Shown: positions 23,924 to 64,000, counted from the first letter of the stretch. The stretch: DNA of 64,000 nucleotides from a virus (IMGVR_UViG_3300025112_000010:1-64000); one strand, 5' to 3'. Made by a program: numbers and translations. Notes: a model not told the origin generated them from the sequence alone.

Positions 23924-23962
23924 TTGCAGAGTTCCTTATGTTGGGGAGTGTTTCTCAGATTC

Positions 23963-24484: not shown

Positions 24485-24583
24485 GGTAATCGTCCTTGTG
24501 CGAGGGGGTGTTTTGATGTGTGTTAAATAAAGAGGGAGAACCGGCAGGAGACCAATCGAGACCGATCCCCCCTCCACCGATTT

Positions 24584-42834: not shown

Positions 42835-42847
42835 GTCCGGAAGTATA

Positions 42848-44797
42848 TCATGCGGTGATGGTCATTGTCAACACCGGTCGGGTAACTCTCCAGATTGTTT
42901 TGTCCTGGAGGGATGTAATATCCACCAACCACTCAAAATTGGTGGTGGTCTGTCTCGCCGTGAAGTTGACGGAGGTGGTGTCGTCGGTGTTGATTACTGT
43001 CGTGGAGATGTCCCCGCCGGAATCGTAGATTCGGAAGTCCAAAGTCTGAATCCCTACCCCGGTTGTCTCAGAGTGGGTGAAGGAAATTGTATAATCCTCC
43101 CCTACGATAGTGTGTTCCTGGGTGAGGTCTACCGTACCTGTGGCTGTGCCTGCCGCTGGGGGTACTGCTTTGAAGGACATGACAGTCCCTGCAAGATTTA
43201 TGTTGTACCCGCTTTCGGTCACTACCCACTGGTTGGTTGGCCCATGGAGACTTGGGTGTAGGATTAGGTTCTGCGAAGTGTAGGTCGTGGAGCCCAGATC
43301 CTCGGTGGATTCAATCACAAGGTTCTGCTTGCCCTCTCCGTCCTGCCACTGGGTGTCTATACCTACGACCAATCCCGTGATTACAGTCTGGGTGCCATCC
43401 GTCAATTTTGGATCTCGGAATGTTACAAGATCGTTGATTGACACTCCTGGCAAGATGACAGTCTCCACCTTCCAACTCTTCTGTGCCATCTTTCTCTCTT
43501 GGAGATGACGTACCCCTACTTGAAAAAGTGTGGCGGGGTGTTCTATGTAAGGATTATCAATCTGCTCGGATAAGGGTCCATGCTTACTTTGAAGATCGGA
43601 GTCATCTATCGTCATCTCAATCTGGAGGTCGGTCCTTTCTGTGGCAGATCGTGTGGGACTTCTCTGGGACTCCCCTCCAGGGCTTCCTCCCCCACCTGCC
43701 ATGTTCCCGTTAGGAGGTCTCCCATTTAGACGTCTCGCCATCTCTTGGAGTGCATGATCTCCCTTCTTGTTTTTCTGGTCCTCCTTGGGTTTAACTTTCT
43801 TCTCCTTCTTGGGTTGCGGTTGACCTAGAACTGAAATGTCGATCTCTGAGGCTGCGGAGAAGAAGCCTGTTGTTTTCTCTGCAACAAACTTAGCACCAGT
43901 TGACCACATACCCTCCCAATGAGAGAACGTAGCACCGGCTACCACTACCTCTGCGTTTTTCAAAACCTTTTGTTCGTGTTCCTCTCCATGCTGCCTTGGA
44001 ACTTCGACGATAAATTCACCCTCTTTGGCGGGTAAGCCTTTGTTTAAGCAGCGGACTCTTGAGCCTTGGCTGTCGCCTTGACCTCCTTGCCCTGAGCCTC
44101 CTCCTGAGTCCTGCAACTCTACAGGAGAGGTGGGCATCTGCGAGACCCAGCAGCCCCGGACCTTAACACGACTGGGGATTATTTCTTCATTCATCGCTCG
44201 CTGGGCTGAGATGATGAACTCGTCTGGGATCGTATAAGCTGCTGCGGCTGTTAGGTCGGTCCACTCTTGGAGTTGGAGTATCCCAACTTCATCCACATAG
44301 AGTGCGCCTAATCCCGCCTGTGCGACCCGTTTAAGCTCGTCTAGGATATTTGACCCTGTGATAGGTCCGCATACTGTGCGAGCCGCTAGAGAGACGCTGT
44401 AGATCCCTGACGGGACTCCTGCGTATTCGTCAAGGATTGTGGTAGCGGCTGCGGTGGCTTCCCCGATATTCACCTCAGTGTTGACCGGCTTCTTCGTCAG
44501 CCTCGCGAAGAAAGATTTTACGGCAAAGCCTATCATCCTCTCTGAGATTCCGGTCTTCTCGTCGATCCCTTCGAGGAGCCCGTTGACGTAGAGCTTGCTG
44601 CCGTTGAGGATGGTTATATCCCCGCTGGCTACATTGGCAACCGTAGAGGTGGTTGTGGTGGTGATGTTGATCACTTCGGCAAGATTAGTCTCGCCGTAGT
44701 TGGAATCTTTGTTCACCACTGAGAGGCTTGCGGTGTAAGAGCCTCGGTACGATGCCCTAGAGGACCAATTGATTATGTCAGAAGTCGTTATTGTCAT
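42848..44797 (-). CDS. Large hypothetical structural protein (649 aa) with a Gly/Ser/Gln linker and a Lys-rich segment.
   Basis: ORF track; beta-rich C-terminus. Confidence 0.5.
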   Translation of the reverse strand: MTITTSDIINWSSRASYRGSYTASLSVVNKDSNYGETNLAEVINITTTTTSTVANVASGDITILNGSKLYVNGLLEGIDEKTGISERMIGFAVKSFFARLTKKPVNTEVNIGEATAAATTILDEYAGVPSGIYSVSLAARTVCGPITGSNILDELKRVAQAGLGALYVDEVGILQLQEWTDLTAAAAYTIPDEFIISAQRAMNEEIIPSRVKVRGCWVSQMPTSPVELQDSGGGSGQGGQGDSQGSRVRCLNKGLPAKEGEFIVEVPRQHGEEHEQKVLKNAEVVVAGATFSHWEGMWSTGAKFVAEKTTGFFSAASEIDISVLGQPQPKKEKKVKPKEDQKNKKGDHALQEMARRLNGRPPNGNMAGGGGSPGGESQRSPTRSATERTDLQIEMTIDDSDLQSKHGPLSEQIDNPYIEHPATLFQVGVRHLQERKMAQKSWKVETVILPGVSINDLVTFRDPKLTDGTQTVITGLVVGIDTQWQDGEGKQNLVIESTEDLGSTTYTSQNLILHPSLHGPTNQWVVTESGYNINLAGTVMSFKAVPPAAGTATGTVDLTQEHTIVGEDYTISFTHSETTGVGIQTLDFRIYDSGGDISTTVINTDDTTSVNFTARQTTTNFEWLVDITSLQDKTIWRVTRPVLTMTITA

Positions 44798-46536
44798 TCG
44801 TCATCAGCCAAATAGAATTCGGGAATCACAGAGCTGTTGGATTCTTTCCCCCAAATCTGATGTTGCAGATGGAGGATCTTATCCTTTGCTATTCTTTCCA
44901 AATCATAACGCCTAATCATCCCTTCCGATTCTAGCACTTGTGTTGCCCTAGTTGGAGGGATTACGGGCGTACCCCAAGTATATTGGGGATCGAATCTTAA
45001 TAAAGCCCAATCATAGTTCTGGGCGATTCTTGTAAAGGCTATTGTGACGTTCTCTTTATCTCCGCTCTCGGTTGCTATTCGATCATGGAGGTCGGTTGCG
45101 ACCAAGACGTCCGCTTCCGGCCAAGGGTCGGAGAGGGCTTGGTGCTTCAACTTGGAATTCAAAGCAGAGTCATACCTCTCAAGGGCTTCCCCATCCCATT
45201 CCAATCCTGTGACGTTAACCTTCTCCCGGCGAGCCTGCCTTAAAAAGTCTCCCGTAAAGGAACCTAGCTCCAAAACAGAGTCACCCAGCGTAAGGGAACA
45301 CTTGGCCGCAGCTTTGAAGATCTGCGGCATGAACGCCTGCTTTGTAAACCCATAGCGGTATTTATATTTGGCTGTCTCCTTGCGGTACTGGCTCCCTTTA
45401 CAGACTGCTTCAAAATCTAGTGCCACCTGGGACTGCTCGTATCTTCGGGCGTAAGTGGCGGCATCTCTTATAGCGTCCGCTTGCATATCGGGATCTGCCA
45501 GGAAATCTAAAGTTCTATCAACCATTGCTCTTACATCAGGGACAGCCCACAATGCGTCGTTCCTCGGCTCCCAAAGGGCAGGCTCTACCAACTGGGAATT
45601 GTCCTCCCCTAGTAGCTCAGGAAGTGCCGTATGTTTGCTGACAATCTGGGGGTGGCACAATGCCGCGCACTCTACAGTAGGAACTCCAAAACCTTCACCC
45701 TCAGATGTGGTGATTCTTAGATCGCTAAGGAGTATAAGCTCTCTAAGCTCTTCTCGGGAGAGACCTTTGTTCCAATCAAAATCTGTGTAGATGACTTCGT
45801 CTTGTAAGCCATAAAGGCTCTCCATCTTCTTCAGATCAAAACCTTCGGGATGCCCACCCTCTTGGATCTGATTCATCTTGGTGTGAGCTAGAAGTCTGAT
45901 TCGTTTGTCAGGCATCTCCTGCTTCAATTGGCGAATGTAATCAAAGGTAGCATCCCACCTCTTGTGCCAAATGTTTCTGTCCATGTTAAGTACGATGAAG
46001 GTGTTGTCCCTCATAGGATACTTCAGTTTGTCCTCCCACTTTTCTCTAAGCTGGGATCTGTCATGCTTGATTGGATACCAAACTCGGGGATCATACCCAT
46101 GGGGTATCACCAAAGAAGAAGGGAACACAGGTTGCCAAAGCTTTCTAGCAAACTCTGTCAAGTGCGTCAGCCCTTCTGGAGGCATTCCTGTAAAGTGCAA
46201 GGCTGCATCGTCCTTGATGGTGGAGCCTTCATAAGGGAACCAGAAGAAACACGGGCAGTTTGCAGGAGCTGACGTTGATCCAAGATAACCCTGGATGCCT
46301 CCTGGATGGTGGAAGAAGATACAAGCGTCCGGTGCAACGCCGTGGATCTCAGGGTCCAGCTCCTTCATGTCGAAGCCGTTTGACATTCTTCGCTCGTCTA
46401 CACCCTCGATCTCTATGATAGGCATAGGGACCTGCTGCGAGAGAAGTGTTACCTCGTGCCCAAGCTCTGCGAGTCCTTGGACAAGCAGTCGGACCTGTTG
46501 GCCGAAACCCGCTAGGGAATGATGGTGATTCTCCAC
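44794..46536 (-). CDS. Bifunctional family 1 glycosyltransferase (GT-B fold) fused to a C-terminal SAM-dependent methyltransferase domain.
   Basis: EX7E region SEGEGFGVPTVECAA; MTase motif I VLELGSFTGDF. Confidence 0.6.
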   Translation of the reverse strand: MENHHHSLAGFGQQVRLLVQGLAELGHEVTLLSQQVPMPIIEIEGVDERRMSNGFDMKELDPEIHGVAPDACIFFHHPGGIQGYLGSTSAPANCPCFFWFPYEGSTIKDDAALHFTGMPPEGLTHLTEFARKLWQPVFPSSLVIPHGYDPRVWYPIKHDRSQLREKWEDKLKYPMRDNTFIVLNMDRNIWHKRWDATFDYIRQLKQEMPDKRIRLLAHTKMNQIQEGGHPEGFDLKKMESLYGLQDEVIYTDFDWNKGLSREELRELILLSDLRITTSEGEGFGVPTVECAALCHPQIVSKHTALPELLGEDNSQLVEPALWEPRNDALWAVPDVRAMVDRTLDFLADPDMQADAIRDAATYARRYEQSQVALDFEAVCKGSQYRKETAKYKYRYGFTKQAFMPQIFKAAAKCSLTLGDSVLELGSFTGDFLRQARREKVNVTGLEWDGEALERYDSALNSKLKHQALSDPWPEADVLVATDLHDRIATESGDKENVTIAFTRIAQNYDWALLRFDPQYTWGTPVIPPTRATQVLESEGMIRRYDLERIAKDKILHLQHQIWGKESNSSVIPEFYLADDE

Positions 46537-46581
46537 ATACTACGATCTTCATAATGCCCTACCTCCTTTTCTAAATAAATT

Positions 46582-47178
46582 CTAAATATGGTAGCCTAAC
46601 TGGGACATTAAATCCCAGTTGATAGCGTCCTGGATAACCTTCATGGAAGGCTCCGGGATCTCGTCTAAGTAATGGTGACCGGTGTAACGATCTTCCTCAA
46701 AAGTCTTCTCGCTCTGTTGGAGATTAGGTCCGATAGTATTCGTCACGCGGGTGAAGGTCTTCTGCATCAAACCAAAACGCTTCCCCACTCTATCCATAAC
46801 CTTCTGGGGATTCTCAATCAGATCTTCTATCCTGACAATCTCTTTAGGCTGTGGAATGGTGAGCCAGTTAGCATAGCGTTTATTGAAGTTCCTGCATAAT
46901 TCTCGGACGTTCTTTTCTCGCCAATCCGGTCGCCTCCGGAGCTGCTTCCCGAAATTGAAGTAGCTGGGAAACCATGCGTAAGGATGTCGGATAGAAATAA
47001 GATGCCCCCAGTAGAGCTTGCAAAAGTCCACCCTGTCGTAGAGAGCATCATGTTTATGGACAGGGGTATTTGTTTGAACAGGGACCCCGAAGGTGTTTAG
47101 AACATACAGGCACAAAACATTTGTACCTGTACGCCTAGCACCCCATTGCTTAATGGAATCTACTTGCACTTGTTGCAA
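46582..47178 (-). CDS. Sulfotransferase-like P-loop protein.
   Basis: WGARRTGTNVL resembles a PAPS-binding loop; weak. Confidence 0.35.
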   Translation of the reverse strand: MQQVQVDSIKQWGARRTGTNVLCLYVLNTFGVPVQTNTPVHKHDALYDRVDFCKLYWGHLISIRHPYAWFPSYFNFGKQLRRRPDWREKNVRELCRNFNKRYANWLTIPQPKEIVRIEDLIENPQKVMDRVGKRFGLMQKTFTRVTNTIGPNLQQSEKTFEEDRYTGHHYLDEIPEPSMKVIQDAINWDLMSQLGYHI

Positions 47179-47510
47179 CTCTTCTTAGGAGGAGGTGGGT
47201 TACGATCTGTACCTTCGTTCCCGCTGAGTCCAGCCTCTGCCCACTTGGACTGGGGGTAGCCCAGCTTCTCTGCCCCGTATTTGCAACCGTACTTTTCAGT
47301 CTCGACGAATCGTGCAAGGTTAAACAAACCGGAGTCTGCGACGGAACAGCCGCAAACCCCGCATGCCATAAGCTCACCCCTTGGCTGTACCAGAGGGCAC
47401 TCCCGGCAAATCTCCAGCCTTGCCAGCATCACTTCCTTGCTTACTGTTGTTCCGTTTATTAGAGCGCTTGCTAGGCTTGCCGTTTTTTGGAAGAGGTTCT
47501 TCTTTGCCAT
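47160..47510 (-). CDS. Cys-rich zinc-binding protein (CRECP...CGVCGC).
   Basis: ORF track. Confidence 0.45.
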   Translation of the reverse strand: MAKKNLFQKTASLASALINGTTVSKEVMLARLEICRECPLVQPRGELMACGVCGCSVADSGLFNLARFVETEKYGCKYGAEKLGYPQSKWAEAGLSGNEGTDRNPPPPKKSCNKCK

Positions 47511-48957
47511 CGTCTATTGTATCCGTAACTGCGAGACCTTTGACCGGAGACTTCTTAGCCTTCGGTTTCTTTTTAGTGGGTTTAGCTTCACCATCTGGAT
47601 GGAAGTTTCTACGTCGAGCATCCATCTTGTTGTCCTCGATAGACATCTTACCATAACCCATCTGCTCAAACATTGCAGGGCTTTGGTGGATACCTCGACG
47701 ACCTATGTACAACCCCCGGTTTACATTTGGGGCAAGCAGTAGAAAACCGGCTCTTTGCATTGAACACAAAGTCGCTGCGTCTTGCCCGGTTGCCGGGGAG
47801 TCCCAATACTTGGCAAGCTTGTCTTTGTATTCCTTGTTAACAGGGAAGGGCTTAGTGGAGTCCTTAGCACACTTCTTCAACACCTCTCGAAACCAAGGTC
47901 GAATAGTTTTGTTGGGCCTGTCATGGTAGAACGACTTGAGGAAGAGACGTTGATACTCAAGTATGGTCGGGGACATACCTTCCCAGCATTTGCGGGAGAT
48001 CAAGTAGCCCCAGAGATTTGTCCTGGATGCGTGGACTGTAGAGAGCTGCTCCTTCTTCTCCTCGCTACCCAACAAGCACTTGCTCCAACCTTGGACTACT
48101 CCTACATTGTCATAATTCTTCTCTCCCCAGAGCATAAGATTTCGACAGTACGTCAGGTACTCCGGCGAAGGAACCATGTCATCTTCAAAGATGTAAGCGT
48201 ACTTGTAATCCATGTTGGTGAGGAGTTGGTGACGTGCATCAATGATGTTCCGTCCGCAACCAAGATTGATCGGCCTGTGTATACAGTGGGCATGTGGGAT
48301 CAACTTTTTGGCAAGCTCTTCATGCTCAACCATCACATGGGTGTTACCAATTAAAGGTCTGTCGATAAAGATGTAGACGGGGTGCTTCTTCTCTCGAACC
48401 TCTGGGTTCTTACAGAGACCTTCAAGGACTTCTTTAAAGTAGCTCAACCGGTCGCATGCGATGATCGCTATAGCTGTGTCGGATTGGATAGCGGGATCAT
48501 AGTCGTCCGCTAGATTGTAAGCAACCGACTCCCAATCAAGATTCTTGGGGACTGCATTGGCTTCTTTGTAAACTACGTCGGGAAGATGGTCAGCCGCTTC
48601 TACTCTAAGCTCATCCAGCTTCTTCTTCATAAAGCGACCAGGGTCTGCCAAATCTCGCCAAACATTAGGAGAACCCTCTGGCTTCATAGCGAAGAGACCT
48701 TTTGTCTCAATGTCTCGACCTCGCCAGTGGCCTTGGCTATTGAGCTTCATTACGACCTTTAAAGAGCCGTCCTGTTTTCGCAGTAGAAGTTGGAGACCTT
48801 CTGCAGCTCTACGAAGAGCCCAGGTTGTAATCTCTCCCCCATTCTCTACTTCCTTGTTTTCCTTTAAAGAGATTTCGTGGGAAGGTTTGTCCGGCGGGTA
48901 TGCCGTGAATTTCACGGTCTCATTGATTGCGTCAGTTCCATATCCAATAAGATTCAT
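47374..48957 (-). CDS. GT-A fold (family 2-like) glycosyltransferase with a Lys-rich C-terminal tail.
   Basis: IAIIACDRLSYF N-terminal strand; DxD-like YAYIFEDDMV. Confidence 0.45.
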   Translation of the reverse strand: MNLIGYGTDAINETVKFTAYPPDKPSHEISLKENKEVENGGEITTWALRRAAEGLQLLLRKQDGSLKVVMKLNSQGHWRGRDIETKGLFAMKPEGSPNVWRDLADPGRFMKKKLDELRVEAADHLPDVVYKEANAVPKNLDWESVAYNLADDYDPAIQSDTAIAIIACDRLSYFKEVLEGLCKNPEVREKKHPVYIFIDRPLIGNTHVMVEHEELAKKLIPHAHCIHRPINLGCGRNIIDARHQLLTNMDYKYAYIFEDDMVPSPEYLTYCRNLMLWGEKNYDNVGVVQGWSKCLLGSEEKKEQLSTVHASRTNLWGYLISRKCWEGMSPTILEYQRLFLKSFYHDRPNKTIRPWFREVLKKCAKDSTKPFPVNKEYKDKLAKYWDSPATGQDAATLCSMQRAGFLLLAPNVNRGLYIGRRGIHQSPAMFEQMGYGKMSIEDNKMDARRRNFHPDGEAKPTKKKPKAKKSPVKGLAVTDTIDDGKEEPLPKNGKPSKRSNKRNNSKQGSDAGKAGDLPGVPSGTAKG

Positions 48958-48981: not shown

Positions 48982-49527
48982 TTAAGTTCCAAAGGGGTGG
49001 GCTAGCCACGTACCAGGGTTGCATTGTAAACCACCTGACCATGTTATACCAAACGGAGCCAAATCTATAGAGCCTGAACAACTTCCGGGAATAGCAACTG
49101 CAAAAGGGGAATCAGCGCGAATGGGATCGGAGGCATCATAATTGCTACACTCCCCATCACCTGTCGCCCTTAGTTTAAGTATCATTGTACAGGCTGCGGC
49201 ATCTACAAGTAGGTAGAGTTTTCTGTTGTCAAAATCCCCACTACAAACTCCAGGAGAACCGTAGACGTCATCCACAGACTCCCAGATGTTGAAATCAGTT
49301 CCTCCACAATTTGTAATGCCTGTATATGTTACAGGTTTTCTAACATTAAAAAGAGAGCAGCTTGAGCAAGAACTATTTGAAAAGCCTGTCCCTTGTATGT
49401 CAAAGGTTGCTGGAAGTGTGCAAGAGCATATTGTAGGTGGGGTGGGACCCGTAGCACCGCAACAACATCCATAGAATACGCCGCTGTCTCCAAAGATGAC
49501 TCCATTTGCACCTACTGAAATTGCCAT
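48982..49527 (-). CDS. Cys/Gly-rich secreted-type or structural protein (GCCCGATG, 20 Cys in 181 aa).
   Basis: ORF track. Confidence 0.45.
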   Translation of the reverse strand: MAISVGANGVIFGDSGVFYGCCCGATGPTPPTICSCTLPATFDIQGTGFSNSSCSSCSLFNVRKPVTYTGITNCGGTDFNIWESVDDVYGSPGVCSGDFDNRKLYLLVDAAACTMILKLRATGDGECSNYDASDPIRADSPFAVAIPGSCSGSIDLAPFGITWSGGLQCNPGTWLAHPFGT

Positions 49528-51003
49528 CTAACTACAATCGTAAACAGAGAATTTCTTGAGACAACCGTCACTGTCTAAACCTAAGACGTAAGTTGGTATG
49601 GCAGAGGACCACACTACTGCGGAGAAGGGTCCATCGGGGCACTCATCCAACTTCATTTCTAAAACTTCATTGGTGATCGTCAGACCACTTCCATAGTTGA
49701 TACCTAGCGAGCATTGACCTGCGGTCTCTAAACCCCTTCGATGCCCGGCTCGGCCCGCTAGGTGGTCATTATTTATTTTGACTAGACCTAGCTCCTCCCC
49801 TAAGACTGTAAAACCACACCCGAACTGTATCAAAGCGCGGGACTCCAATTTAACAAGTTTACGAGGTCCCATTGGGATAGGGGTGTAGCTACTATAGCTA
49901 GAACCTTTACCACAAATATTCTCGTCGGAGAAGGTGTAGCTTACCTGTACTGTAGGTCCTGCGACTAGAACAGTGGACACTCCGTTATAGTTAGTACCGC
50001 TGATCATAGGACCCCCGTAGAACTGCCCCGTCGTTGAGTAAGATACTATTCCTTTATCTTTTACGGAAGGGAGACTCAACTCCGGCCAAAAAACAAGATC
50101 GTCTGCGGGATAATCGTGCATGATTGGATCTATGCTCTCTAGAGCATAGCCATCATGGCATAGATACATGTTCTGCATCCACGGTTTTTGGTTAGGCTTT
50201 ACGTCACAGTCTAGGTGGATCTCTTTCTTCTCTGTGCATACAAACTGCCCGCCATTGACGTTGTCGGTGAAAGTAGCTTTGGCTACCAATTCAAATTGTT
50301 GGGACTGGGTTCCGTTAGTTTCCAGAGTGGCTTTAAGATCTGTGGATTGCTTGATAGTGACTGCGGGGACAGCTTCATCTGGATCTTGGACTATCGACCA
50401 TGCAACGCCGTCAAGTGTTGCAATCTCCCTCCCTGTAGAATCTTTACAGTCCCATTCTGTATTGAGTTTGTAGGAGGTCTTGTCCTGGCATAACATATCT
50501 GCCAGACCTTGCAGCTTCATCTTGACGTGGAAGAGTTTACACTTCTGGTCACCGCTTTTCCCGCCGCTTGGTTGGCTATCACCTCCTCCTGAAGACTGCC
50601 CTGGTTCGCAATCATAGGTTACTGTTCGAGTTTGGGACAACTCAGAAAAGCTACCAGCCTCATCGATAGCTTGCACTCTCCAAGAGATCTCGTCACCCAT
50701 CCGGATGTCGGAAACCAATTGGAGGTTGTAAGAAGTTCCTGCCTGCTTAACTGACTTCGTAGTAGGTCCCACGAAATTTGAGTTAAGTGACCATTGCAGA
50801 ACATATTTCGTGGCACCCGAAACTGCGTTCCACGTCAGAACAATCTCAGAGTTCGAGGAGCCAAACGTCATATAAGGACAGATCGTAGAACCATCGTTAG
50901 GTGACGTCAGCACAGGGGCATCCAGAAGTCCGTCAGACTTCCAAGTAGTCGCAGGCTCGGCTGAGACTATAGCAATCTTCTGACGAATCTTTGGATCAGC
51001 CAT
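49528..51003 (-). CDS. Structural protein with a fibronectin-III-like beta-sandwich region.
   Basis: YVLQWSLNS...SWRVQAIDEAG pattern; sits downstream of the tape measure gene. Confidence 0.5.
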   Translation of the reverse strand: MADPKIRQKIAIVSAEPATTWKSDGLLDAPVLTSPNDGSTICPYMTFGSSNSEIVLTWNAVSGATKYVLQWSLNSNFVGPTTKSVKQAGTSYNLQLVSDIRMGDEISWRVQAIDEAGSFSELSQTRTVTYDCEPGQSSGGGDSQPSGGKSGDQKCKLFHVKMKLQGLADMLCQDKTSYKLNTEWDCKDSTGREIATLDGVAWSIVQDPDEAVPAVTIKQSTDLKATLETNGTQSQQFELVAKATFTDNVNGGQFVCTEKKEIHLDCDVKPNQKPWMQNMYLCHDGYALESIDPIMHDYPADDLVFWPELSLPSVKDKGIVSYSTTGQFYGGPMISGTNYNGVSTVLVAGPTVQVSYTFSDENICGKGSSYSSYTPIPMGPRKLVKLESRALIQFGCGFTVLGEELGLVKINNDHLAGRAGHRRGLETAGQCSLGINYGSGLTITNEVLEMKLDECPDGPFSAVVWSSAIPTYVLGLDSDGCLKKFSVYDCS

Positions 51004-51398
51004 TACACACCCCCGCAGGCGAGGGCAGAATATTCAGTGGTGACAGATATAACCTGGAACATCCCAGAGACCGAGAAGATCCTTCCCCTAACAGTAGGAG
51101 AATCCAATTGGACAAATTGAACTTGAAGGTCATCATCCCAGTAACCGGTGAATTGGTACTCGGTAAGAGACGCGGTGTTATAAAGGTCATAGAGGACTTT
51201 GAATTCGGCGGGTGTTGCAACTTGGATAGTCCAAGACAGTGTACCATCTCCATGCACAATTAAATCATCCGCTTCCTGAAGAATTACCGCACCTGCTGTG
51301 GGTGTGGTCGTCATTCTCTTTCGGGGAACGTATAAGCTGTAGCTAAAGGATAGAGGTAAATTTACCGCATTCAACGTAGCTTGGTAAGCCATTGCCAT
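51003..51398 (-). CDS. Hypothetical tail-associated protein.
   Basis: ORF track; start and stop coupled to the tape measure gene. Confidence 0.5.
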   Translation of the reverse strand: MAMAYQATLNAVNLPLSFSYSLYVPRKRMTTTPTAGAVILQEADDLIVHGDGTLSWTIQVATPAEFKVLYDLYNTASLTEYQFTGYWDDDLQVQFVQLDSPTVRGRIFSVSGMFQVISVTTEYSALACGGV

Positions 51399-54300
51399 TA
51401 GACTTCTCCTACAGACATGTTAGCACTTGAGATTGCCTTTCCGATGTGACGAGTCACGTTATCCATATCTACGTTGTTGTTGATGTCCATTCGGACTGTG
51501 CGGTTATCGTTGTTATTGGTAGTTGTACCCCCGCCTCCTCCACCAGAAGGAGCAGTACCTCCCAGTCCCATGTAATGGGAAGGTGCAAGTCGTCCTAGTT
51601 GTGGACCCTTCTTCGCTAAGGTGTTAACCATTCTATCAATACCACCAGAGGCTACCTCTACATTCTGGTTCCAAATGTCCACAAGAGAGGGACTGTGGTG
51701 TGTTGTAGGCTTGGATTCATGCTTAATTGCTGCCATAGTAGCTTGTACTGCCGCAATCATCCTCTGAGATTCAACCGTCCAACCTGCAAGGAACGCATTG
51801 ACCCAGTGGACTGGTGCAGCTCGGAAGTCGTTCATCACTTGGATCATGCTGGCTCGTACAGCCAACTGCATCTGGTGGACACGTTTCTGCACCTCATCGA
51901 TTTTGGCTTGGACTATAGCAGGATCACCACCCGCACCTCCTACAGCTCCCGCGACTTGCGCCTCCTGGGCTCTCTTCTGCGCGAACTGATTTACGAGTTG
52001 ACCTCGGGTTCGCATACGCTCAATAACTGCGTCCAGGCGTTTGACCTCGGTGTCATTACCATGACCTAAAGCCTTAGCCCGTCGCTGCTCAAGTCTTTCC
52101 AGGTTTTGCTGGAAGCGTACTGCTGTGTCGGCAGCTCGCATAGCCAGAGCTTCTTGCTGGAAACGTATGTAGTAGAGACCTTGGTAAAGAAGTATCAATT
52201 TCTGGACACTGTCCACCTGCTTGAGGAGAGCATCGGTAACTCGCTTCTCAAGGTCCGCTTCGTTCTTTGCTACGTCAGGCTTCTTACCAAGTTTCTTATC
52301 GGCATCTTTAGCCATAGCCTCTTGGGCTTTTTGGATACGATCTCGGGCTTGGGCTGCCAATAGCTCTTCGTTTTTGCGAGCCTGCTCTCCTACGATTCCA
52401 AGCTTTTTCATCTTGGCTCGCTCTTGTTCAAGGATCTTTTCGTTCTCTAGCTTGGCAGCTTCTACACGATTCCCTTTGCGTTTGGCCTCGTCGATCTTCA
52501 ACTGGCGGTTAAAATCTTTACGGGACTTCTCCAGTTCCACCTTCTTCTTCTTCTCGTCTGCTATCTCCTTATCCTTTTTTTCCTTCTCTTTCTTTGCAGC
52601 TTCGTCTAAGTCCTCTAACCTTTGTCTTTCATTATCTGCCATTAAGTCTTGTACTTCCGCAACCTGCTGATAAGTCCTCTCCATCTCGTCTAGAAGCTTA
52701 TTAAATTCTTTTTGACGCTCTACCTCATCTTCAATTGCATCCAACTCCTCTAACCTCTTCGTATAGCTTAGTTGGATTATTCGTAGCTCCTCCAGTCGCA
52801 AAGCTAACTTCTCCTTTATGGAGTCTTTCTGGTCATTTATTTTAGACGTCTCCTTGTCAAGCCCTTCCAAGTCTGCGTCGTGGATCTCCTTGACAAGGTC
52901 TGCATAATCCTCTGCTCCTTCGGCTAAGGACTCCTGGGCTGCTACAAGTTCCTGCTGGGCGAGTCTCTGATCAACCCAAGCCGCTGTTATCTCCTCGGAG
53001 GTTAAGACCCCATCATTCCGCATCTGCCTAACGAACTCTAGATACTCTTGGTTATGGTCATTGACGACCTTTAAATCATGTACATAACCTCTTAACCGTT
53101 CTTTCTCAGCCTCATGCGCCTCTGCGGCCTTTTGGCGGGCGGCAGCATCATCCCCCGCCATGTTCATCTCCGTCAGCTTCAAGGCTACTAATTCTTCTTG
53201 TAATTTTATACGACGCTCATGCGCCTCAATGTGCTCCTCAACAGTTCGTTCGGTGTCTTCAACTACAATTTTTAAAACCTTTGCAGTTCTAAGGGTCCTA
53301 ACACCTACTTCGTATTGTTTCTCTCTGGTGGCAAGATCCGCTTTTAGCGATGTCTTTACGTCTCCATCCTCCAGCCTACTTATCGTCCTCTTCAGAGTTA
53401 TCATCGCAGCCATCTGCTCTTCTAGGCTTGCGGTTAGACCCTCAACAGACTTTCCACCTTCATCCCAACTCTTCGTCAACTCATTAAGTTTTGTCCCTGT
53501 CAGAGATGCGTTCTTTCCTAGATCATCATAGAAGGCGGCAGCATCTCTAACCTCTTTGCCCATCCTCTTGGCACCCTCTGAGTTCTGCATCCAGTCAAGC
53601 TGATTCATCTGTTCAGCAGACATTCCCATGCTGGCAGCCATATCCGCAAAGGATTGACCTACCTTTTTGGAGTCGTCCGCTAGAAGACCAAACCAAATTA
53701 AGAGCCTCTTAACCAAGCCTATTAGAAAACCTACAGCCATCGCCAAACCCCAAATGGGAGATGTGAGCAAAACTATAGAGCTTATTAAGGTTCCCCCGAG
53801 AATAGCTGTGAGTCCTACAAGAATGGCTGTGAGGTATTTTACAACTACGGCGACCCCTTCTATAACAACGTAGAAACCTTCCCACCCTCCTACAGCCCAA
53901 AGTACAGCCTTCATCACCGTTGCCATGACGGTGCCTACGACCTTCAGACCCAAGTATAGACCTTCTAAGAAAGCCTTACCTATAGCCCACACAGCCTTCG
54001 CCACTACGTTCAGCACCTCGGTAAAGAACTCAAAGTCTGCAACCATTACGGCTATAATCGCAACCAAGGGGGAGAGGAGTACAAGTAGCGCTGCAGCGAC
54101 TATAAGAAAGGCTTTCCAGAATACAACTACCAACGTGATGGCTGGGATCAATGCGCCCAGGGTTGTCAACAAAGCCCCTGCTACTCCAAGGACAACAGAG
54201 AGTGCTGCCGCTGCTGCTCCAAAAATTGCAATAGACTTTACAAAGGATGCCACTACGTCCTTATTAGCTTTAGCCCACTCATTGAAGGCTCTCACCATAC

Positions 54301-55417
54301 CCGTTATCTTGTCTATTGCTTTCTGTAAAACGCCTTGGAAGGTTTGGAAGATTGTGATGCCTAAGCCTTGGACAATCGATTTAAGCTCTGTGAATGAGCC
54401 TATGACAGAGTCCATGCGGATCTCAGCCATTGTTCTTGCGGCACCTGTAGCATCTTCTATGTATCCCTGAATCTTCTTCATCGCATCAGAACCTTGGTTC
54501 TTCAGCGCAAGCATTTGTCTACCGGCACGAACACCAAAGATCATCAAAGTGTCAGTGGCACTGATGTTGGCGTCTTCAAAAGTTTCAACAATCTCCGTAA
54601 GAGATTTGATTTCAGGGTTGATGTCTTGTATCGTGAGTCCATATTTCCCTAGAGTCTCCTGAGCTTTCTTTGTCCCTTTGGAGGCTTGTGATAATACTTG
54701 ACCAAGTCCCGCACCTGACACAGAGCCTTTGATGCCTGCATTGGCTAGAACACCAAGAGCTGCTGCAGTTTCTTCAAGAGATTGACCAAAGGCTTCTGCG
54801 ATTGGTGCAGATAGTTGGAAAGAGAACCCCAGCTTTTCAACAGAGGTGTTAGTGTTTGCTGCAGTAACGGCGATAACGTCAGTAACACGAGCTAGATTAG
54901 AAGCCTCGATGTTAAAGGCTCGCATCGTATCTACTGCGATTTCAGAGGCTCGTGCAAGTTCAAGGTTACCTGCTGCAGCAAGATTAAGAACCTCGCCTAC
55001 ACCAGCTAATACCTCCTCAGTGTTCAGACCCGCTAACGCCATGAACTTCATGGCTTCTGCAACCTCTGTTGCTGTAAAGCGAGTAGTCTCTCCTAACTCT
55101 TGGGCCTTTGCTGTGAGTTTGGCGAAGTTCGCGGCAGCTTCTGTGCTTGCCTCACTGGCATCCTTCATCACCGCTTTGACATCTTGCATCGCCTGTTGGA
55201 ATTTACCACCCAGGAGTACAATGGGCGTCAGAGCAGCAGCGACCACTAGAGAGAAATTACGAAGACCTCGACTTGCGCTTGTAAGGGCAGAGCCTACCTG
55301 CGTGGCTGCTGCCCCTAACTTCTGCATACTTGCTTGAACGGTTGTTGCACCGTTTTGAATCTGCCGTACCCCCGTCATGGAGATGTGCAGAATCGCTTGA
55401 CCTAATTTACTCGCCAT
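51398..55417 (-). CDS. Tail tape measure protein (1339 aa).
   Basis: Length, extended coiled coils, a central cluster of hydrophobic helices, and position after the chaperone pair. Confidence 0.85.
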   Translation of the reverse strand: MASKLGQAILHISMTGVRQIQNGATTVQASMQKLGAAATQVGSALTSASRGLRNFSLVVAAALTPIVLLGGKFQQAMQDVKAVMKDASEASTEAAANFAKLTAKAQELGETTRFTATEVAEAMKFMALAGLNTEEVLAGVGEVLNLAAAGNLELARASEIAVDTMRAFNIEASNLARVTDVIAVTAANTNTSVEKLGFSFQLSAPIAEAFGQSLEETAAALGVLANAGIKGSVSGAGLGQVLSQASKGTKKAQETLGKYGLTIQDINPEIKSLTEIVETFEDANISATDTLMIFGVRAGRQMLALKNQGSDAMKKIQGYIEDATGAARTMAEIRMDSVIGSFTELKSIVQGLGITIFQTFQGVLQKAIDKITGMVRAFNEWAKANKDVVASFVKSIAIFGAAAAALSVVLGVAGALLTTLGALIPAITLVVVFWKAFLIVAAALLVLLSPLVAIIAVMVADFEFFTEVLNVVAKAVWAIGKAFLEGLYLGLKVVGTVMATVMKAVLWAVGGWEGFYVVIEGVAVVVKYLTAILVGLTAILGGTLISSIVLLTSPIWGLAMAVGFLIGLVKRLLIWFGLLADDSKKVGQSFADMAASMGMSAEQMNQLDWMQNSEGAKRMGKEVRDAAAFYDDLGKNASLTGTKLNELTKSWDEGGKSVEGLTASLEEQMAAMITLKRTISRLEDGDVKTSLKADLATREKQYEVGVRTLRTAKVLKIVVEDTERTVEEHIEAHERRIKLQEELVALKLTEMNMAGDDAAARQKAAEAHEAEKERLRGYVHDLKVVNDHNQEYLEFVRQMRNDGVLTSEEITAAWVDQRLAQQELVAAQESLAEGAEDYADLVKEIHDADLEGLDKETSKINDQKDSIKEKLALRLEELRIIQLSYTKRLEELDAIEDEVERQKEFNKLLDEMERTYQQVAEVQDLMADNERQRLEDLDEAAKKEKEKKDKEIADEKKKKVELEKSRKDFNRQLKIDEAKRKGNRVEAAKLENEKILEQERAKMKKLGIVGEQARKNEELLAAQARDRIQKAQEAMAKDADKKLGKKPDVAKNEADLEKRVTDALLKQVDSVQKLILLYQGLYYIRFQQEALAMRAADTAVRFQQNLERLEQRRAKALGHGNDTEVKRLDAVIERMRTRGQLVNQFAQKRAQEAQVAGAVGGAGGDPAIVQAKIDEVQKRVHQMQLAVRASMIQVMNDFRAAPVHWVNAFLAGWTVESQRMIAAVQATMAAIKHESKPTTHHSPSLVDIWNQNVEVASGGIDRMVNTLAKKGPQLGRLAPSHYMGLGGTAPSGGGGGGTTTNNNDNRTVRMDINNNVDMDNVTRHIGKAISSANMSVGEV

Positions 55418-56535: not shown

Positions 56536-56949
56536 TTACACTACGTCTGCGTAAGGCTTGGAAACGGTGATACCCGTAGTTGTCAACGAAGTAGTCGTGA
56601 TGGAAGGCGTAGTTGCCGTACCTGCACTCTTGCTCCAGACCCAACCGTAGAAACCATCGCCTGGGGGACGATTAGCATTGCTGCCGCCGATGTCATCAGA
56701 GTTGCTGTCGTTACCGACTGAAACACTGTTGGTCACGAGTTGAGCAGCGTTGGTAGACAACCACTGATCAATTGCATCACCAATAACTGCACGAGTCATC
56801 TTCATGGACGTCAACAGACCTTTAGGATCTGTAACAGTCATCACGATAGTGCCCGAATTAACGGAAGGCGTGACAGTGAAGTCAATCCAACTCGCTTCTT
56901 TATCGGCGTAGTTATGACCTGCGCCCGCACTAGGTTCTGAGAAAACCAT
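56536..56949 (-). CDS. Structural protein (Thr/Ser-rich C-terminus).
   Basis: ORF track; RBS GGAGAA. Confidence 0.5.
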   Translation of the reverse strand: MVFSEPSAGAGHNYADKEASWIDFTVTPSVNSGTIVMTVTDPKGLLTSMKMTRAVIGDAIDQWLSTNAAQLVTNSVSVGNDSNSDDIGGSNANRPPGDGFYGWVWSKSAGTATTPSITTTSLTTTGITVSKPYADVV

Positions 56950-61455: not shown

Positions 61456-61854
61456 TTAGGGTGTGGGACTTAATTTAAATTCGACAAGCCCTCTTCCGGC
61501 TACTTTATAAGCTCCAGAGTCGGCGCTGTCAAATATCCCGATCTCCATCCGGTTCTTTCCGGCAGAGAAATTCGAGGTCGTTAAGTCGGCGGCAGCTACT
61601 GAAAGGGTGAGGACTGCTGCCGCAGTGACAGATCCAAGCGAGGTCACTGTAACCGTTGACGTCCCTGTGTCCGTTATCGTGATCGTCGTCGAGGCGTCCC
61701 CGTCGTCCTTCCATATTTTCACCTGCGCCGTATCAGCAAGAACAAGAACAACGGGGGTGACCCCGTCCTCTTCGTAAAGAGAAATAGTCCAGATCTCTTT
61801 CGAGGCTTGGATGAAGGAAATTGTATCAAAGTTAAATGCGCCTGCCATCAGCAC
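61456..61854 (-). CDS. Hypothetical Thr-rich structural protein.
   Basis: ORF track. Confidence 0.5.
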   Translation of the reverse strand: MLMAGAFNFDTISFIQASKEIWTISLYEEDGVTPVVLVLADTAQVKIWKDDGDASTTITITDTGTSTVTVTSLGSVTAAAVLTLSVAAADLTTSNFSAGKNRMEIGIFDSADSGAYKVAGRGLVEFKLSPTP

Positions 61855-63985: not shown

Positions 63986-64000
63986 TCCAATTTCGTCGTG

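What the first reader, a model, noticed from the sequence alone, without database searches (positions are those of the whole stretch)
44794..48957. Carbohydrate-modification cluster inside the tail gene block: GT1 fused to a SAM-MTase, a sulfotransferase-like protein, a Cys-rich protein and a GT2-like protein (plus GT9 at 60257)
Three glycosyltransferase folds sit among tail structural genes:
- a GT-B family 1 glycosyltransferase with an EX7E motif, fused to a class I MTase with VLELGSFTGDF;
- a GT-A enzyme with a DXD motif;
- a GT9 heptosyltransferase-like enzyme.

A possible sulfotransferase is also present.

This placement suggests glycosylation or other decoration of virion proteins. Several structural proteins here are Thr/Ser-rich. 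Alternatively the enzymes may modify the host surface.

A GT1-methyltransferase fusion points to a methylated sugar.
Basis: partly seen in the sequence, partly recalled or inferred. Interest (0 to 1): 0.6.

Follow-up and report, generated by a model that had tools for sequence, protein, structure and literature searches.

The report
Phage tail-end glycan-building gene module
An uncultured tailed phage carries, at the far end of its tail genes, a conserved set of sugar-adding and sugar-decorating enzymes that most likely coat its own tail or fibre proteins with a methylated (and in this strain perhaps sulfated) glycan, though the target has not been shown.

Summary
On the minus strand, 44794-48957 encodes four proteins:
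- a GT-A glycosyltransferase (527 aa, invariant EDD motif) whose nearest fold is GnT-I/GT13, not GT2;
- a small protein with six invariant cysteines;
- a sulfotransferase-superfamily protein;
- a GT-B (Pfam Glycos_transf_1, i.e. CAZy GT4-like, not CAZy GT1) enzyme with an invariant EX7E motif, fused to a class I SAM-methyltransferase fold.

A divergent GT9 gene lies at 60257-61441.

GT-A, the Cys-rich protein, the GT4-MTase and a ~650-aa protein keep the same order downstream of the tape-measure gene. This is seen in five distant metagenomic phage contigs (30-43% identity, 62-108 kb). The sulfotransferase is strain-specific. Its slot holds an HNH endonuclease, or a CmcI-type methyltransferase, in relatives.

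The enzymes have no transmembrane segments. No integrase or base-hydroxymethylase was detected. Several structural proteins carry Ser/Thr-rich tracts.

Best reading, inferred and not shown: late-expressed cytoplasmic glycosylation of virion tail or fibre proteins. The main rival is modification of host envelope glycans.

Unexpected: the GT4-MTase gene has a conserved 5' frame break (UUU CGG C). A +1 ribosomal slip there would restore the family's consensus N-terminus.

The parts
47374..48957 (-). 527-aa glycosyltransferase. It has an N-terminal beta-rich domain (res 1-95) and a GT-A catalytic domain (res ~158-465) with an EDD (DXD-type) motif at 48178-48186. The disordered Lys-rich tail (res 468-527) overlaps the next gene.
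   Evidence: - Family alignment: invariant E258 D259 D260.
- AF2 pLDDT 83.
- Foldseek PDB: GnT-I 6.9e-11, POMGnT1, GnT-II.
- Weak profile hit to GnT-I across the EDD motif.
- Homologue present in all 5 distant loci.
47160..47510 (-). 116-aa Cys-rich small protein. It is probably a zinc-binding partner and is conserved immediately upstream of the GT4-MTase gene.
   Evidence: - Six invariant Cys (C35 C38 C50 C53 C55 C76) in 5 genomes.
- phrog_13558, unknown function, E 2.3e-7.
- Found in L001, L002, L004, L005 and L006.
46582..47169 (-). 195-aa sulfotransferase-superfamily protein. It is a strain-specific accessory gene. The 5'-PSB loop KQWGARRTGT is at 47122-47151.
   Evidence: - Window protein: Sulfotransfer_3 E 0.003, sub-threshold.
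- 281 homologues; 33 of 40 hit Sulfotransfer_3.
- Profile against PDB: CurM ST 2.7e-8, TPST1 7.8e-5.
- Absent from all related loci.
44794..46552 (-). GT4-like GT-B glycosyltransferase fused to a class I SAM-methyltransferase domain.
- The main frame is 46536->44794 (580 codons).
- EX7E lies at 45670-45696.
- The MTase domain lies at ~44797-45363, with motif I VLELGSFTGDF at 45244-45276.
- The canonical ATG (46552) and its RBS are in another frame. The candidate +1 slip site UUU CGG C is at 46501-46507.
   Evidence: for the domains. for the frame break, dN/dS 0.042 and the rarity of CGG.
60257..61441 (-). 394-aa divergent GT9-family (heptosyltransferase-like) glycosyltransferase among the head/neck genes.
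   Evidence: - Pfam PF01075 E 3.1e-12, 46.8 bits against a cutoff of 22.
- Best PDB hit is WaaC at E 0.054 only.
- Far below the NCBIfam LPS heptosyltransferase equivalog cutoffs.
42848..44797 (-). 649-aa Thr/Gly-rich protein that always follows the GT4-MTase gene. It is a probable distal tail or fibre protein and the last gene of the structural unit.
   Evidence: - Homologues in all 5 distant loci.
- 2 of 6 hit phrog_1887 'tail protein', best E 2.1e-5.
- TTTTTST tract.
48982..51398 (-). Three tail-region genes between the tape measure and the enzymes: a 131-aa protein, a 491-aa FN3-like Cys-rich protein, and a 181-aa protein with 13 Cys.
   Evidence: Position downstream of the TMP. Sequences. 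The 491-aa family is conserved in all relatives.
51398..55417 (-). Tape measure protein (the anchor that defines the tail module).
   Evidence: phrog_1533 E 4.4e-76 and 23 further tape-measure and related PHROGs.
56536..56949 (-). 137-aa structural-region protein with a Ser/Thr-rich C-terminal tract (SKSAGTATTPSITTTSLTTT). It is a candidate glycan acceptor.
   Evidence: 26% S+T, 13 of 20 in the tract. A similar C-terminal tract occurs in the L001 and L004 homologues.
61456..63985 (-). Ser/Thr-rich proteins flanking the GT9 gene. One is a 132-aa protein (DASTTITITDTGTSTVTVTS). The other is a fibre-like repeat protein of at least 611 aa, with TTTT linkers, that runs off the window. Both are candidate acceptors.
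   Evidence: Tandem 210-nt repeat at 63020-63472.
42842..42871 (-). Best sigma-70-like promoter match in the region (TTGACA-18-TATACT, TG-extended). It sits at the boundary between the 649-aa gene and the replication module.
   Evidence: It is a consensus match only, and the number of sites in the region is not above chance.

Best explanation
The module is a phage-encoded, cytoplasmic glycan-assembly line. It is expressed together with the structural genes and decorates the phage's own tail or fibre proteins, and possibly head-fibre proteins.

Proposed mechanism:
- The GT13-like GT-A enzyme and the GT4-like GT-B domain each add a sugar from a nucleotide-sugar donor.
- The acceptors are Ser/Thr-rich tracts of structural proteins, or the growing glycan.
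- The fused class I methyltransferase domain then caps the sugar added by its own GT domain, as PBCV-1 A064R does.
- The small zinc-binding protein is a conserved partner of unknown role.
- Strain-specific tailoring enzymes sit in a recombination-prone slot and diversify the glycan. Here the tailoring enzyme is a PAPS-type sulfotransferase; elsewhere it is a CmcI-type O-methyltransferase or an extra GT8.
- The separate GT9 enzyme next to Ser/Thr-rich head-proximal proteins would do a related job there.

Shown: the enzyme folds and motifs, conserved synteny, purifying selection, soluble enzymes, and Ser/Thr tracts.

Inferred: the acceptor, the donors, the order of steps, and the timing of expression.
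For: - Folds and catalytic motifs are confirmed for all five enzyme domains.
- The order TMP - ~130 aa - FN3 protein - GT-A - Cys-rich - GT4-MTase - ~650-aa protein is conserved in five contigs at 30-43% identity. The core is therefore an ancestral part of the structural region, not a recent moron.
- The genes are tightly packed on one strand with the tail genes. The strongest promoter-like site lies only after the 649-aa gene.
- dN/dS is 0.04-0.07 across the cluster.
- No hydrophobic segment is compatible with a transmembrane helix in any enzyme.
- Ser/Thr-rich tracts occur in several structural proteins, and a T16 run occurs in the L006 tail protein.
- The closest folds of the GT-A enzyme are enzymes that act on protein-linked glycans: GnT-I, POMGnT1, GnT-II and ColGalT1.
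- The slot around the core is variable, as expected for a surface glycan under diversifying selection.
- Precedents exist. Cluster O mycobacteriophages carry an O-MTase plus three GTs that modify capsid and tail tube (PMC11600133, citing Freeman 2023). PBCV-1 A064R is a GT-GT-MTase fusion that builds a methylated capsid glycan (PMC9614988).
Against: - No acceptor is identified.
- Ser/Thr-rich linkers are common in phage fibres without glycosylation.
- Genes for receptor masking or seroconversion also tend to sit next to tail-fibre genes (own knowledge: P22 gtr, epsilon15, T5 llp).
- GT4, GT9 and WbdD-like MTases are classic LPS/O-antigen enzymes, and they too lack TM segments.
- The tail identity of the 649-aa protein rests on a weak PHROG hit in 2 of 6 homologues.
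- There is no detectable sequence relation to the mycobacteriophage GTs.
- Host and expression timing are unknown.
Confidence: 0.45

Rival explanations
1. Host-envelope modification. During infection the enzymes remodel LPS core, O-antigen or capsule at the cytoplasmic face of the membrane. This would mask the receptor used by the adjacent tail fibre. The benefit would be superinfection exclusion, or protection of progeny from adsorbing to debris.
For: - GT4, GT9 and WbdD-like MTase folds are typical of LPS/O-antigen pathways.
- The cluster is adjacent to the presumed fibre gene. That is where receptor-masking and seroconversion genes often lie (own knowledge).
- Accessory tailoring genes vary between strains, like O-antigen loci.
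- L006 carries sugar-nucleotide genes nearby.
Against: - No integrase or other lysogeny marker was detected in the 64-kb window.
- No membrane-embedded Gtr/Oac/Wzy-type protein is present, and no enzyme has a TM segment.
- The core is ancestral and syntenic with structural genes in five distant genomes, rather than moron-like.
- A second GT (GT9) sits among head/neck genes, far from any fibre gene.
- The GT9 is far below all LPS heptosyltransferase equivalog thresholds.
Confidence: 0.28
2. DNA hypermodification. The glycosyltransferases and the methyltransferase decorate hydroxymethylated bases of the phage genome to evade restriction.
For: - Phage GT-A and GT-B enzymes are known to glycosylate DNA (bioRxiv 10.1101/2023.12.21.572611, listed).
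- The cluster abuts the replication module.
- The window has MazG-like, YfbR-like 5'-deoxynucleotidase and dNMP-kinase-like genes.
Against: - No ThyA-like hydroxymethylase, C5-cytosine MTase or TET/JBP dioxygenase was detected in the window. The two DNA MTases are N6/N4 and Dam types.
- The cluster is syntenic with tail genes, and a promoter-like site separates it from the replication genes.
- A sulfotransferase and a CmcI-type sugar O-MTase as accessories fit glycan chemistry, not DNA chemistry.
Confidence: 0.07
3. The enzymes make or modify a soluble or secreted small molecule or polysaccharide unrelated to the virion (a generic auxiliary metabolic function). Alternatively, some are inactive structural relics.
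For: - The window's own GT-A, MTase and sulfotransferase sequences are sub-threshold for Pfam.
- The MTase glycine loop is GxxxG rather than GxGxG.
- The GT4 gene has a 5' frame break.
Against: - Catalytic residues (EX7E, EDD, PAPS loops) are invariant or nearly invariant in the families.
- Purifying selection is strong.
- Solved MTases share the GSFxGDF loop (2p7h).
- Placement with the structural genes is conserved.
Confidence: 0.1

Closest known systems
Mycobacteriophage virion O-glycosylation systems (Che8, Corndog/cluster O, Myrna; Freeman et al. 2023, as cited in PMC11600133 and PMC12619734)
   Same: A siphovirus-encoded set of several glycosyltransferases plus an O-methyltransferase. 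In the known system the glycans sit on Ser/Thr-containing C-terminal regions of structural proteins (capsid and tail tube). The enzymes are soluble.
   Different: - No detectable sequence similarity: tblastn of the GT4-MTase and GT-A proteins against 50,697 phage records found no mycobacteriophage.
- Here the MTase is fused to a GT.
- A Zn-ribbon-like partner and a sulfotransferase are present.
- The module sits at the tail end.
- The host is unknown.
- Glycosylation is not demonstrated.
Chlorovirus PBCV-1 A064R (GT-A + GT + class I MTase fusion building the methylated terminus of the capsid N-glycan; PMC9614988)
   Same: A virus-encoded, soluble, multidomain enzyme. A glycosyltransferase domain is fused to a C-terminal class I SAM methyltransferase that methylates the sugar just added. 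Further stand-alone tailoring enzymes are present.
   Different: - A064R's GT domains are GT-A or a new family, not GT4-like GT-B.
- It belongs to a eukaryotic algal virus.
- Its acceptor is known (major capsid protein Vp54).
- Homology with the phage protein was not tested directly.
GnT-I / POMGnT1 (CAZy GT13) GT-A enzymes
   Same: Best structural matches of the 527-aa protein (Foldseek 6.9e-11 to 1e-8). They share the EDD metal-binding motif and a weak profile match across it. POMGnT1 also has an extra N-terminal domain.
   Different: - Only 12-16% identity, and TM-scores of 0.3-0.5.
- The window protein has no Pfam PF03071 hit of its own.
- The N-terminal beta domain is unrelated as far as tested.
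- The known enzymes belong to the eukaryotic Golgi, whereas this one is a phage cytoplasmic protein.
O-antigen/LPS assembly enzymes (WaaG/WbdA-type GT4, WaaC/WaaF GT9, WbdD terminator methyltransferase)
   Same: The same fold families. Methylation serves as a glycan-capping step. The proteins are peripheral and soluble.
   Different: - The GT9 scores 17-30 bits against equivalog cutoffs of 135-467.
- The GT4's best NCBIfam hit is BshA at 27 bits against 274.
- The genes are embedded in a phage structural operon.
Marine phage Sulfotransfer_3 genes (OM43 phage MVGs, Synechococcus phage S-SRM01; PMC10580990)
   Same: A small PAPS-type sulfotransferase-family gene carried sporadically by marine phages, with unknown function.
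   Different: Here it is inserted inside a glycosyltransferase cluster, which suggests a glycan acceptor. Direct homology to those phage genes was not tested.

Membership tests
Pfam Glycos_transf_1 / CAZy GT4-like GT-B | Profile match above the curated threshold | tested here: met
   PF00534 36.8 bits against a cutoff of 26.4. All 27 family members match.
Pfam Glycos_transf_1 / CAZy GT4-like GT-B | EX7E motif in the C-terminal Rossmann domain | tested here: met
   E281 and E289 are invariant in 27 sequences, within S-x-GEGFG-x4-E.
Pfam Glycos_transf_1 / CAZy GT4-like GT-B | Intact N-terminal beta1 strand and Gly-rich loop in the same reading frame | tested here: inconclusive
   MKIVVCGESPSFPSGF is encoded from ATG 46552 in a frame different from the rest of the gene. 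It would be restored only by a +1 shift at UUU CGG C.
Class I SAM-dependent methyltransferase | Rossmann-like seven-strand MTase fold | tested here: met
   AF2 pLDDT 92, pTM 0.90. The top 50 Foldseek PDB hits are all MTases, from E 2.4e-7.
Class I SAM-dependent methyltransferase | Motif I glycine-rich loop and an acidic residue at the end of beta2 for SAM binding | tested here: inconclusive
   - The loop is G-S-F-T-G (GxxxG), with only the first Gly invariant.
- The acidic residue at the beta2 end (read off the alignment) is kept in most sequences.
- Solved MTase 2p7h has the same LELGSFKGDF loop.
- The window sequence alone has no Pfam MTase hit at E<=0.1.
GT-A fold glycosyltransferase, GT13-like | GT-A fold with a DXD-type metal-binding motif | tested here: met
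   EDD (E258-D260) is invariant in 21 sequences. Foldseek to GnT-I gives 6.9e-11.
GT-A fold glycosyltransferase, GT13-like | Profile membership in PF03071 (GNT-I) | tested here: not met
   The window protein has no Pfam hit at E<=0.01. Only 5 of 20 relatives carry a precomputed PF03071 hit. It resembles GT13 but is not shown to be a member.
   No hit for the window protein. One relative of 20 has PF00535. GT2 structures rank below GT13 and GT16.
PAPS-dependent sulfotransferase superfamily | 5'-PSB loop (K-x-x-G-x-x-R/K-T/S-G-T) and 3'-PB motif (R/K-x-P-x-x-x-x-x-S) | tested here: met
   K7, G10, R13, G15, T16, P63, W66 and S69 are invariant or at least 90% conserved in 40 sequences. The alignment to CurM ST runs across the RHPY...S motif.
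PAPS-dependent sulfotransferase superfamily | Profile match above the curated threshold | tested here: inconclusive
   The window protein scores 18.1 bits against a cutoff of 27. 33 of 40 homologues match Sulfotransfer_3 at E<=0.01, and the family profile against PDB gives 2.7e-8.
CAZy GT9 / LPS heptosyltransferase | Pfam PF01075 above threshold | tested here: met
   46.8 bits against a cutoff of 22.
CAZy GT9 / LPS heptosyltransferase | Equivalog-level match to WaaC/WaaF/WaaQ | tested here: not met
   17-30 bits against cutoffs of 135-467. PDB WaaC gives E 0.054. Heptose specificity cannot be assumed.
Phage virion glycosylation system (mycobacteriophage type) | Glycans covalently attached to virion structural proteins | not testable with these tools
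   Needs mass spectrometry or glycostaining of virions.
Phage virion glycosylation system (mycobacteriophage type) | Sequence homology to the characterised phage GTs and O-MTase | tested here: not met
   tblastn against 50,697 phage records found only Tetrasphaera phage TJE1 (26% identity over 37% of the query) for the GT4, and nothing for the GT-A.
Seroconversion / O-antigen modification modules of temperate phages | Membrane-embedded modifying enzymes (GtrA/B/C, Oac, Wzy-type) and a temperate lifestyle | tested here: not met
   The maximum 19-residue hydropathy is 0.9-1.0 for the four enzymes of the cluster and 1.74 for the GT9, too low for a TM helix. No integrase or repressor appears among the ORFs scanned in the window. 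The genome is incomplete.
Phage DNA glycosylation pathways | An enzyme making 5-hydroxymethyl-pyrimidine (ThyA-like hydroxymethylase, or C5-MTase plus TET) | tested here: not met
   None detected in the window. Only this window could be searched, and the whole phage genome may be larger.

The most novel reading that the evidence does not exclude
A lineage of uncultured siphoviruses, with no cultured relative and an unknown host, glycosylates its own tail or fibre proteins. It uses an ancestral three-gene core: a GT13-like GT-A, a zinc-binding partner, and a GT4-methyltransferase fusion. Strains diversify the glycan with swapped-in tailoring enzymes. In this strain that enzyme is a sulfotransferase, which would give the first sulfated, methylated phage virion glycan.

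In addition, in this sublineage synthesis of the GT4-MTase depends on a programmed +1 ribosomal frameshift at UUU CGG C. This would set or regulate the amount of enzyme.
Probability: 0.2. Interest if true: 0.75.

Novelty: new variant of a known kind. Interest (0 to 1): 0.5.

Why it matters
- Virion glycosylation by phage-encoded enzymes has so far been demonstrated only in actinobacteriophages (2023), where it blunts antibody recognition. Its extent in environmental phages is unknown.
- A deeply conserved glycan module with a variable tailoring slot, wired into the tail operon of an uncultured lineage, would show that the strategy is older and wider.
- It would give concrete enzyme families to search for: a GT13-like GT-A with an N-terminal beta domain, a Zn-ribbon partner, and a GT4-MTase fusion.
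- It would raise the question of what a tail glycan does in the sea. Possibilities include protease or grazing protection, host recognition, and evasion of host defences.
- The fused GT-MTase and the inserted sulfotransferase are also candidate tools for glyco-engineering.
- The conserved 5' frame break offers a testable case of +1 recoding in a phage enzyme gene.

Tried and rejected
- **DNA search for relatives.** Megablast of the cluster against 50,697 phage records gave no match. tblastn of the GT-A gave none, and tblastn of the GT4-MTase gave only a weak Tetrasphaera phage hit. There is therefore no annotated relative to lean on.
- **Host or taxon assignment.** DNA polymerase and tape-measure tblastn gave at best 23-36% identity over the aligned region, scattered across unrelated hosts. 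No host or taxon could be assigned.
- **Homologue search for the 649-aa protein.** Word-indexed search returned only its 98% twin, probably because low-complexity words dominated the candidates. A six-sequence profile against PDB gave only low-complexity noise. The tail identity of this protein thus rests on PHROG hits in 2 of 6 homologues.
- **Single-sequence PDB searches.** Neither the sulfotransferase nor the GT9 gave a significant hit. Family profiles were needed.
- **DNA-hypermodification idea.** A 222-aa ORF (16206-16874) weakly hit a 'thymidylate synthase' PHROG. It has no Pfam hit and no PDB ThyA/ThyX similarity, so I do not count it as a hydroxymethylase.
- **Foldseek of the GT-A model against viral structures.** This returned only generic GT-A proteins.
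- **GT9 conservation in the distant relatives.** This could not be tested. The fetched loci end about 10 kb upstream of the GT4-MTase gene, and only 90%-identical contigs were found with the GT9 query.
- **Sequencing error as the cause of the 5' frame break.** Rejected. The same sequence occurs in two haplotypes that differ at 5.7% of positions, across five assemblies.

Full report
**Context**

From about 31 kb to the end of the window, all genes lie on the minus strand.

Reading 5'->3' on that strand, the first genes are:
- a repeat-rich fibre-like protein (62150-63985, open at the window end);
- two small proteins;
- a GT9-family gene (60257-61441);
- neck and tail-completion genes and Ig-like major-tail genes (58353-58898, 57266-57745).

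Next come the tail genes and the cluster of the finding:
- a tape measure protein (51398-55417; phrog_1533 E 4.4e-76);
- proteins of 131, 491 and 181 aa;
- the four genes of the finding;
- a 649-aa protein.

A replication block follows: DnaC-like, DnaB-like, primase, family A DNA polymerase, N6/N4 DNA methylase, helicase and UvsX-like recombinase.

The element is therefore a siphovirus-type phage. It has no close cultured relative:
- megablast of the cluster against 50,697 phage records finds nothing;
- the polymerase and tape measure reach only 23-36% identity over the aligned region, to phages of unrelated hosts.

**The observation: GT4-MTase fusion**

The 580-aa product of 44794-46536 matches Pfam Glycos_transf_1 above threshold and PHROG 2170 'glycosyltransferase'.

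Thirty-two full-length homologues exist in metagenomes.

In an alignment of 27 of them, the GT4 signature S-x-GEGFG-x4-E is invariant, with E281 and E289 forming EX7E. The HKRWD segment is also conserved: H191, K192, W194 and D195 are invariant, and R193 is kept in at least 90% of sequences.

In CAZy terms this is GT4-like.

The C-terminal ~190 residues, carrying VLELGSFTGDF, are a genuine class I methyltransferase fold:
- 12 of 27 relatives hit Methyltransf_23, and 5 hit MetW.
- A profile of the domain hits solved MTases. These are 3dli at 6.5e-6 and 2p7h at 1.5e-5. The latter has the near-identical loop LELGSFKGDF.
- The AF2 model has pLDDT 92 and pTM 0.90.
- Its 50 best Foldseek matches in the PDB are all methyltransferases. 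They include the O-antigen terminator WbdD and the sugar O-MTase EvdMO1.

The glycine loop is GxxxG rather than GxGxG. The window sequence alone is sub-threshold for Pfam. Activity is therefore likely but not certain.

**The observation: the GT-A enzyme**

The 527-aa product of 47374-48957 has no Pfam or PHROG hit of its own. It has 20 homologues, some with GNT-I (PF03071) hits.

The family has an invariant A-x7-R-x2-Y, F-x-D, GCG-x3-ID and E-D-D (E258-D260).

The AF2 model (pLDDT 83) shows three parts:
- an N-terminal helix plus eight-strand beta domain (res 1-95);
- a GT-A catalytic domain (res ~160-465);
- a disordered Lys-rich tail.

Foldseek places it nearest GnT-I (6.9e-11), POMGnT1 and GnT-II. 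ColGalT1, TarP and other GT2-type enzymes come next.

A sequence profile also weakly aligns the EDD region to GnT-I.

It is therefore GT-A with a DXD-type motif, as claimed, but GT13-like rather than GT2.

**The observation: sulfotransferase, Cys-rich protein and GT9**

The 198-codon ORF 46582-47178 most likely starts at the GTG at 47169 (195 aa), as in its 99% twin P0056.

An exhaustive HMMER search found 281 homologues. Of the 40 aligned, 33 hit Sulfotransfer_3 and 13 hit Sulfotransfer_1.

The family profile hits CurM sulfotransferase (2.7e-8), TPST1 and many others.

The PAPS 5'-phosphosulfate loop (K7...G10..R13.G15 T16), an invariant His40, and the 3'-phosphate motif (P63..W66..S69) are conserved.

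The 116-aa Cys-rich protein (47160-47510) belongs to a small family with six invariant cysteines and an unknown-function PHROG.

The GT9 call at 60257-61441 is above the Pfam threshold. The protein is far from every LPS heptosyltransferase equivalog.

**Conservation**

Six metagenomic places that carry homologues of the GT4-MTase at 33-43% identity were fetched. Five of them are independent loci, on contigs of 62-108 kb (L001, L002, L004, L005, L006).

All five show the same order:
- tape measure;
- a ~130-aa protein;
- an FN3-containing protein;
- GT-A;
- the small Cys-rich protein;
- GT4-MTase;
- a 620-836-aa protein;
- DnaC/DnaB.

HMMs built from my alignments confirm that the GT-A, Cys-rich, GT4-MTase, FN3 and ~650-aa families are present in all five loci. 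The sulfotransferase is present in none.

The intervals around the core are variable:
- L005 has an extra Glyco_transf_8 gene.
- L002 has an AAA_33 kinase-like gene and a CmcI/RMNT-type sugar O-methyltransferase.
- L004 has an extra 419-aa gene.
- L006 has mannose-phosphate-isomerase-like, cytidylyltransferase-like and epimerase/dehydratase genes 8-10 kb downstream.

In the window's closest relatives, the slot between the Cys-rich gene and the GT4-MTase holds an HNH endonuclease instead of the sulfotransferase. These relatives are four assemblies of one haplotype, 94.3% identical in nucleotides.

Between the two haplotypes, dN/dS is 0.042 for the GT4-MTase, 0.058 for the 649-aa gene and 0.067 for the 181-aa gene.

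The core is thus an old, selected part of the structural region. The sulfotransferase is a recent accessory.

**What it most likely does**

None of the enzymes has a hydrophobic stretch compatible with a membrane helix. They act in the cytoplasm on soluble or membrane-face substrates.

They are packed without gaps behind the tail genes.

The single best sigma-70-like site in 11 kb (TTGACA-18-TATACT with TG) lies exactly between the 649-aa gene and the replication genes. This is a consensus match only. It suggests the cluster is transcribed with the structural genes.

Several structural proteins are Ser/Thr-rich, with dense tracts:
- the 137-aa protein (13 of 20 residues near the C-terminus; a similar C-terminal tract is present in L001 and L004);
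- the 132-aa protein next to the GT9;
- the repeat fibre protein (26% S+T, with TTTT linkers between ~70-aa repeats);
- the 649-aa protein.

The L006 tail FN3 protein has a run of 16 threonines.

The nearest folds of the GT-A are enzymes that extend protein-linked glycans.

Two precedents exist:
- Cluster O mycobacteriophages carry an O-methyltransferase and three GTs that modify capsid and tail-tube proteins (PMC11600133 and PMC12619734, citing Freeman et al. 2023).
- PBCV-1 A064R fuses two GT domains to a class I MTase that methylates the rhamnose it has just added to the capsid glycan (PMC9614988).

I therefore favour virion (tail/fibre) protein glycosylation, with methyl capping and, in this strain, sulfation. 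Confidence is 0.45.

The acceptor, the donors and the timing are inferred.

**Rivals**

*Host-envelope glycan remodelling (0.28).* This is the serious alternative.
- GT4, GT9 and WbdD-like MTases are LPS/O-antigen enzyme types.
- Receptor-masking or seroconversion genes often neighbour fibre genes (own knowledge).
- Against it: no lysogeny genes or membrane Gtr/Oac/Wzy-type proteins were seen. The core is ancestral and syntenic rather than moron-like. A second GT sits among head/neck genes.

*DNA hypermodification (0.07).*
- It has a precedent (10.1101/2023.12.21.572611).
- The window holds MazG-like, 5'-deoxynucleotidase-like and dNMP-kinase-like genes.
- No hydroxymethylase, C5-MTase or TET was found.

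*A generic metabolic or degenerate role (0.1).* This is disfavoured by the invariant catalytic residues and by purifying selection.

**An unexpected feature**

On the minus strand, a strong RBS (AAAGGAGGT) and an ATG at 46552 encode MKIVVCGESPSFPSGF. This is exactly the family's consensus N-terminus, comprising beta1 and the glycine loop.

The remaining 580 codons are in the +1 frame.

At AGC GGG UUU CGG C, a +1 slip of tRNA-Phe from UUU to UUC would read GGC CAA CAG. That would yield ...PSGFGQQ..., the consensus sequence.

Supporting points:
- CGG is the rarest sense codon in 12,103 codons of this phage.
- The same arrangement occurs in both haplotypes, across five assemblies. It is not a sequencing error.
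- The downstream frame is under strong purifying selection.
- There are no differences in the ~66 nt from the RBS to the slip site, against 11 in the next ~110 nt.
- The out-of-frame continuation is not conserved.
- Distant relatives have the N-terminus in frame.

A programmed +1 frameshift is a reasonable hypothesis. The alternatives are a GTG-initiated protein lacking beta1, or low-level spontaneous shifting.

**Verdict**

The functional interpretation is plausible and now better framed, but it remains unproven.

It is a new variant of a known kind: virus-encoded glycan machinery linked to structural genes. It occurs in an uncharacterised phage lineage, with an unusual enzyme combination and a possible recoding event.

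Noticed in passing
window 46501-46552 (minus strand): The GT4-MTase gene is frame-broken at its 5' end.
- A strong RBS and an ATG encode the consensus N-terminus MKIVVCGESPSFPSGF in one frame.
- The other 580 codons are in the +1 frame.
- UUU CGG C (CGG is the rarest sense codon) would allow a +1 slip that restores ...PSGFGQQ....
- The arrangement is conserved in two haplotypes and five assemblies. The downstream dN/dS is 0.042.
- Distant relatives are in frame.
   Followed up: partly
window 46582-47169; L009 3730-4095; L010 1082-1606; L002 8613-9982: The slot between the Cys-rich gene and the GT4-MTase gene is an insertion hotspot. It holds a sulfotransferase in the window. It holds an HNH_3 endonuclease in the 94%-identical haplotype. 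In L002 it holds a 237-aa gene plus a CmcI/RMNT-type O-methyltransferase.
   Followed up: partly
window 47374-47510: The 527-aa GT-A ORF carries a disordered Lys-rich C-terminal extension (res 468-527, pLDDT <50). It overlaps the Cys-rich gene by 137 nt. In relatives the two genes overlap by only 4 nt (ATGA). The extension is absent from all homologues.
   Followed up: partly
window 62150-64000 (minus strand): A fibre-like protein of at least 611 aa, still open at the window end. It has about five copies of a ~70-aa repeat (TNTDMRGTD...VVNVDLVDLVTTTT) and is 26% Ser+Thr. TRF finds a 210-nt repeat at 63020-63472. It sits two small genes upstream of the GT9 gene.
   Followed up: partly
L006 6271-8577 and 19069-21154: In a distant relative, the FN3 tail protein contains a run of 16 threonines. 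Mannose-P-isomerase-like, cytidylyltransferase-like and NAD-epimerase/dehydratase genes lie downstream of the replication genes. The lineage may therefore make its own nucleotide sugar.
   Followed up: no
window 48982-51003: The two tail-region proteins just upstream of the enzymes are very Cys-rich. The 491-aa protein has 14 Cys and an FN3-like segment. The 181-aa protein has 13 Cys, including a CCC run. This suggests disulfide- or metal-stabilised extracellular tail tip parts.
   Followed up: no
window 42842-42871 (minus strand): A near-consensus extended -10 sigma-70-like promoter (TTGACA-18-TATACT). It lies exactly at the junction between the last structural-region gene and the replication module.
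   Followed up: no
window 4631-5626, 7772-8302, 16206-17299, 34391-35137: Nucleotide and DNA-modification genes:
- a Dam-like D12 methylase;
- an N6/N4 methylase;
- a MazG-like pyrophosphatase;
- a YfbR-like 5'-deoxynucleotidase;
- a 222-aa ORF with weak dNMP-kinase and 'thymidylate synthase' PHROG hits but no Pfam or PDB support.
   Followed up: partly
window 18482-19078, 21398-26116: An SPFH/Band_7 protein is present; one is also found next to the ~650-aa gene in L002. A CbbQ/NirQ/MoxR-type AAA+ ATPase (510 aa) sits beside an unannotated 841-aa protein.
   Followed up: no
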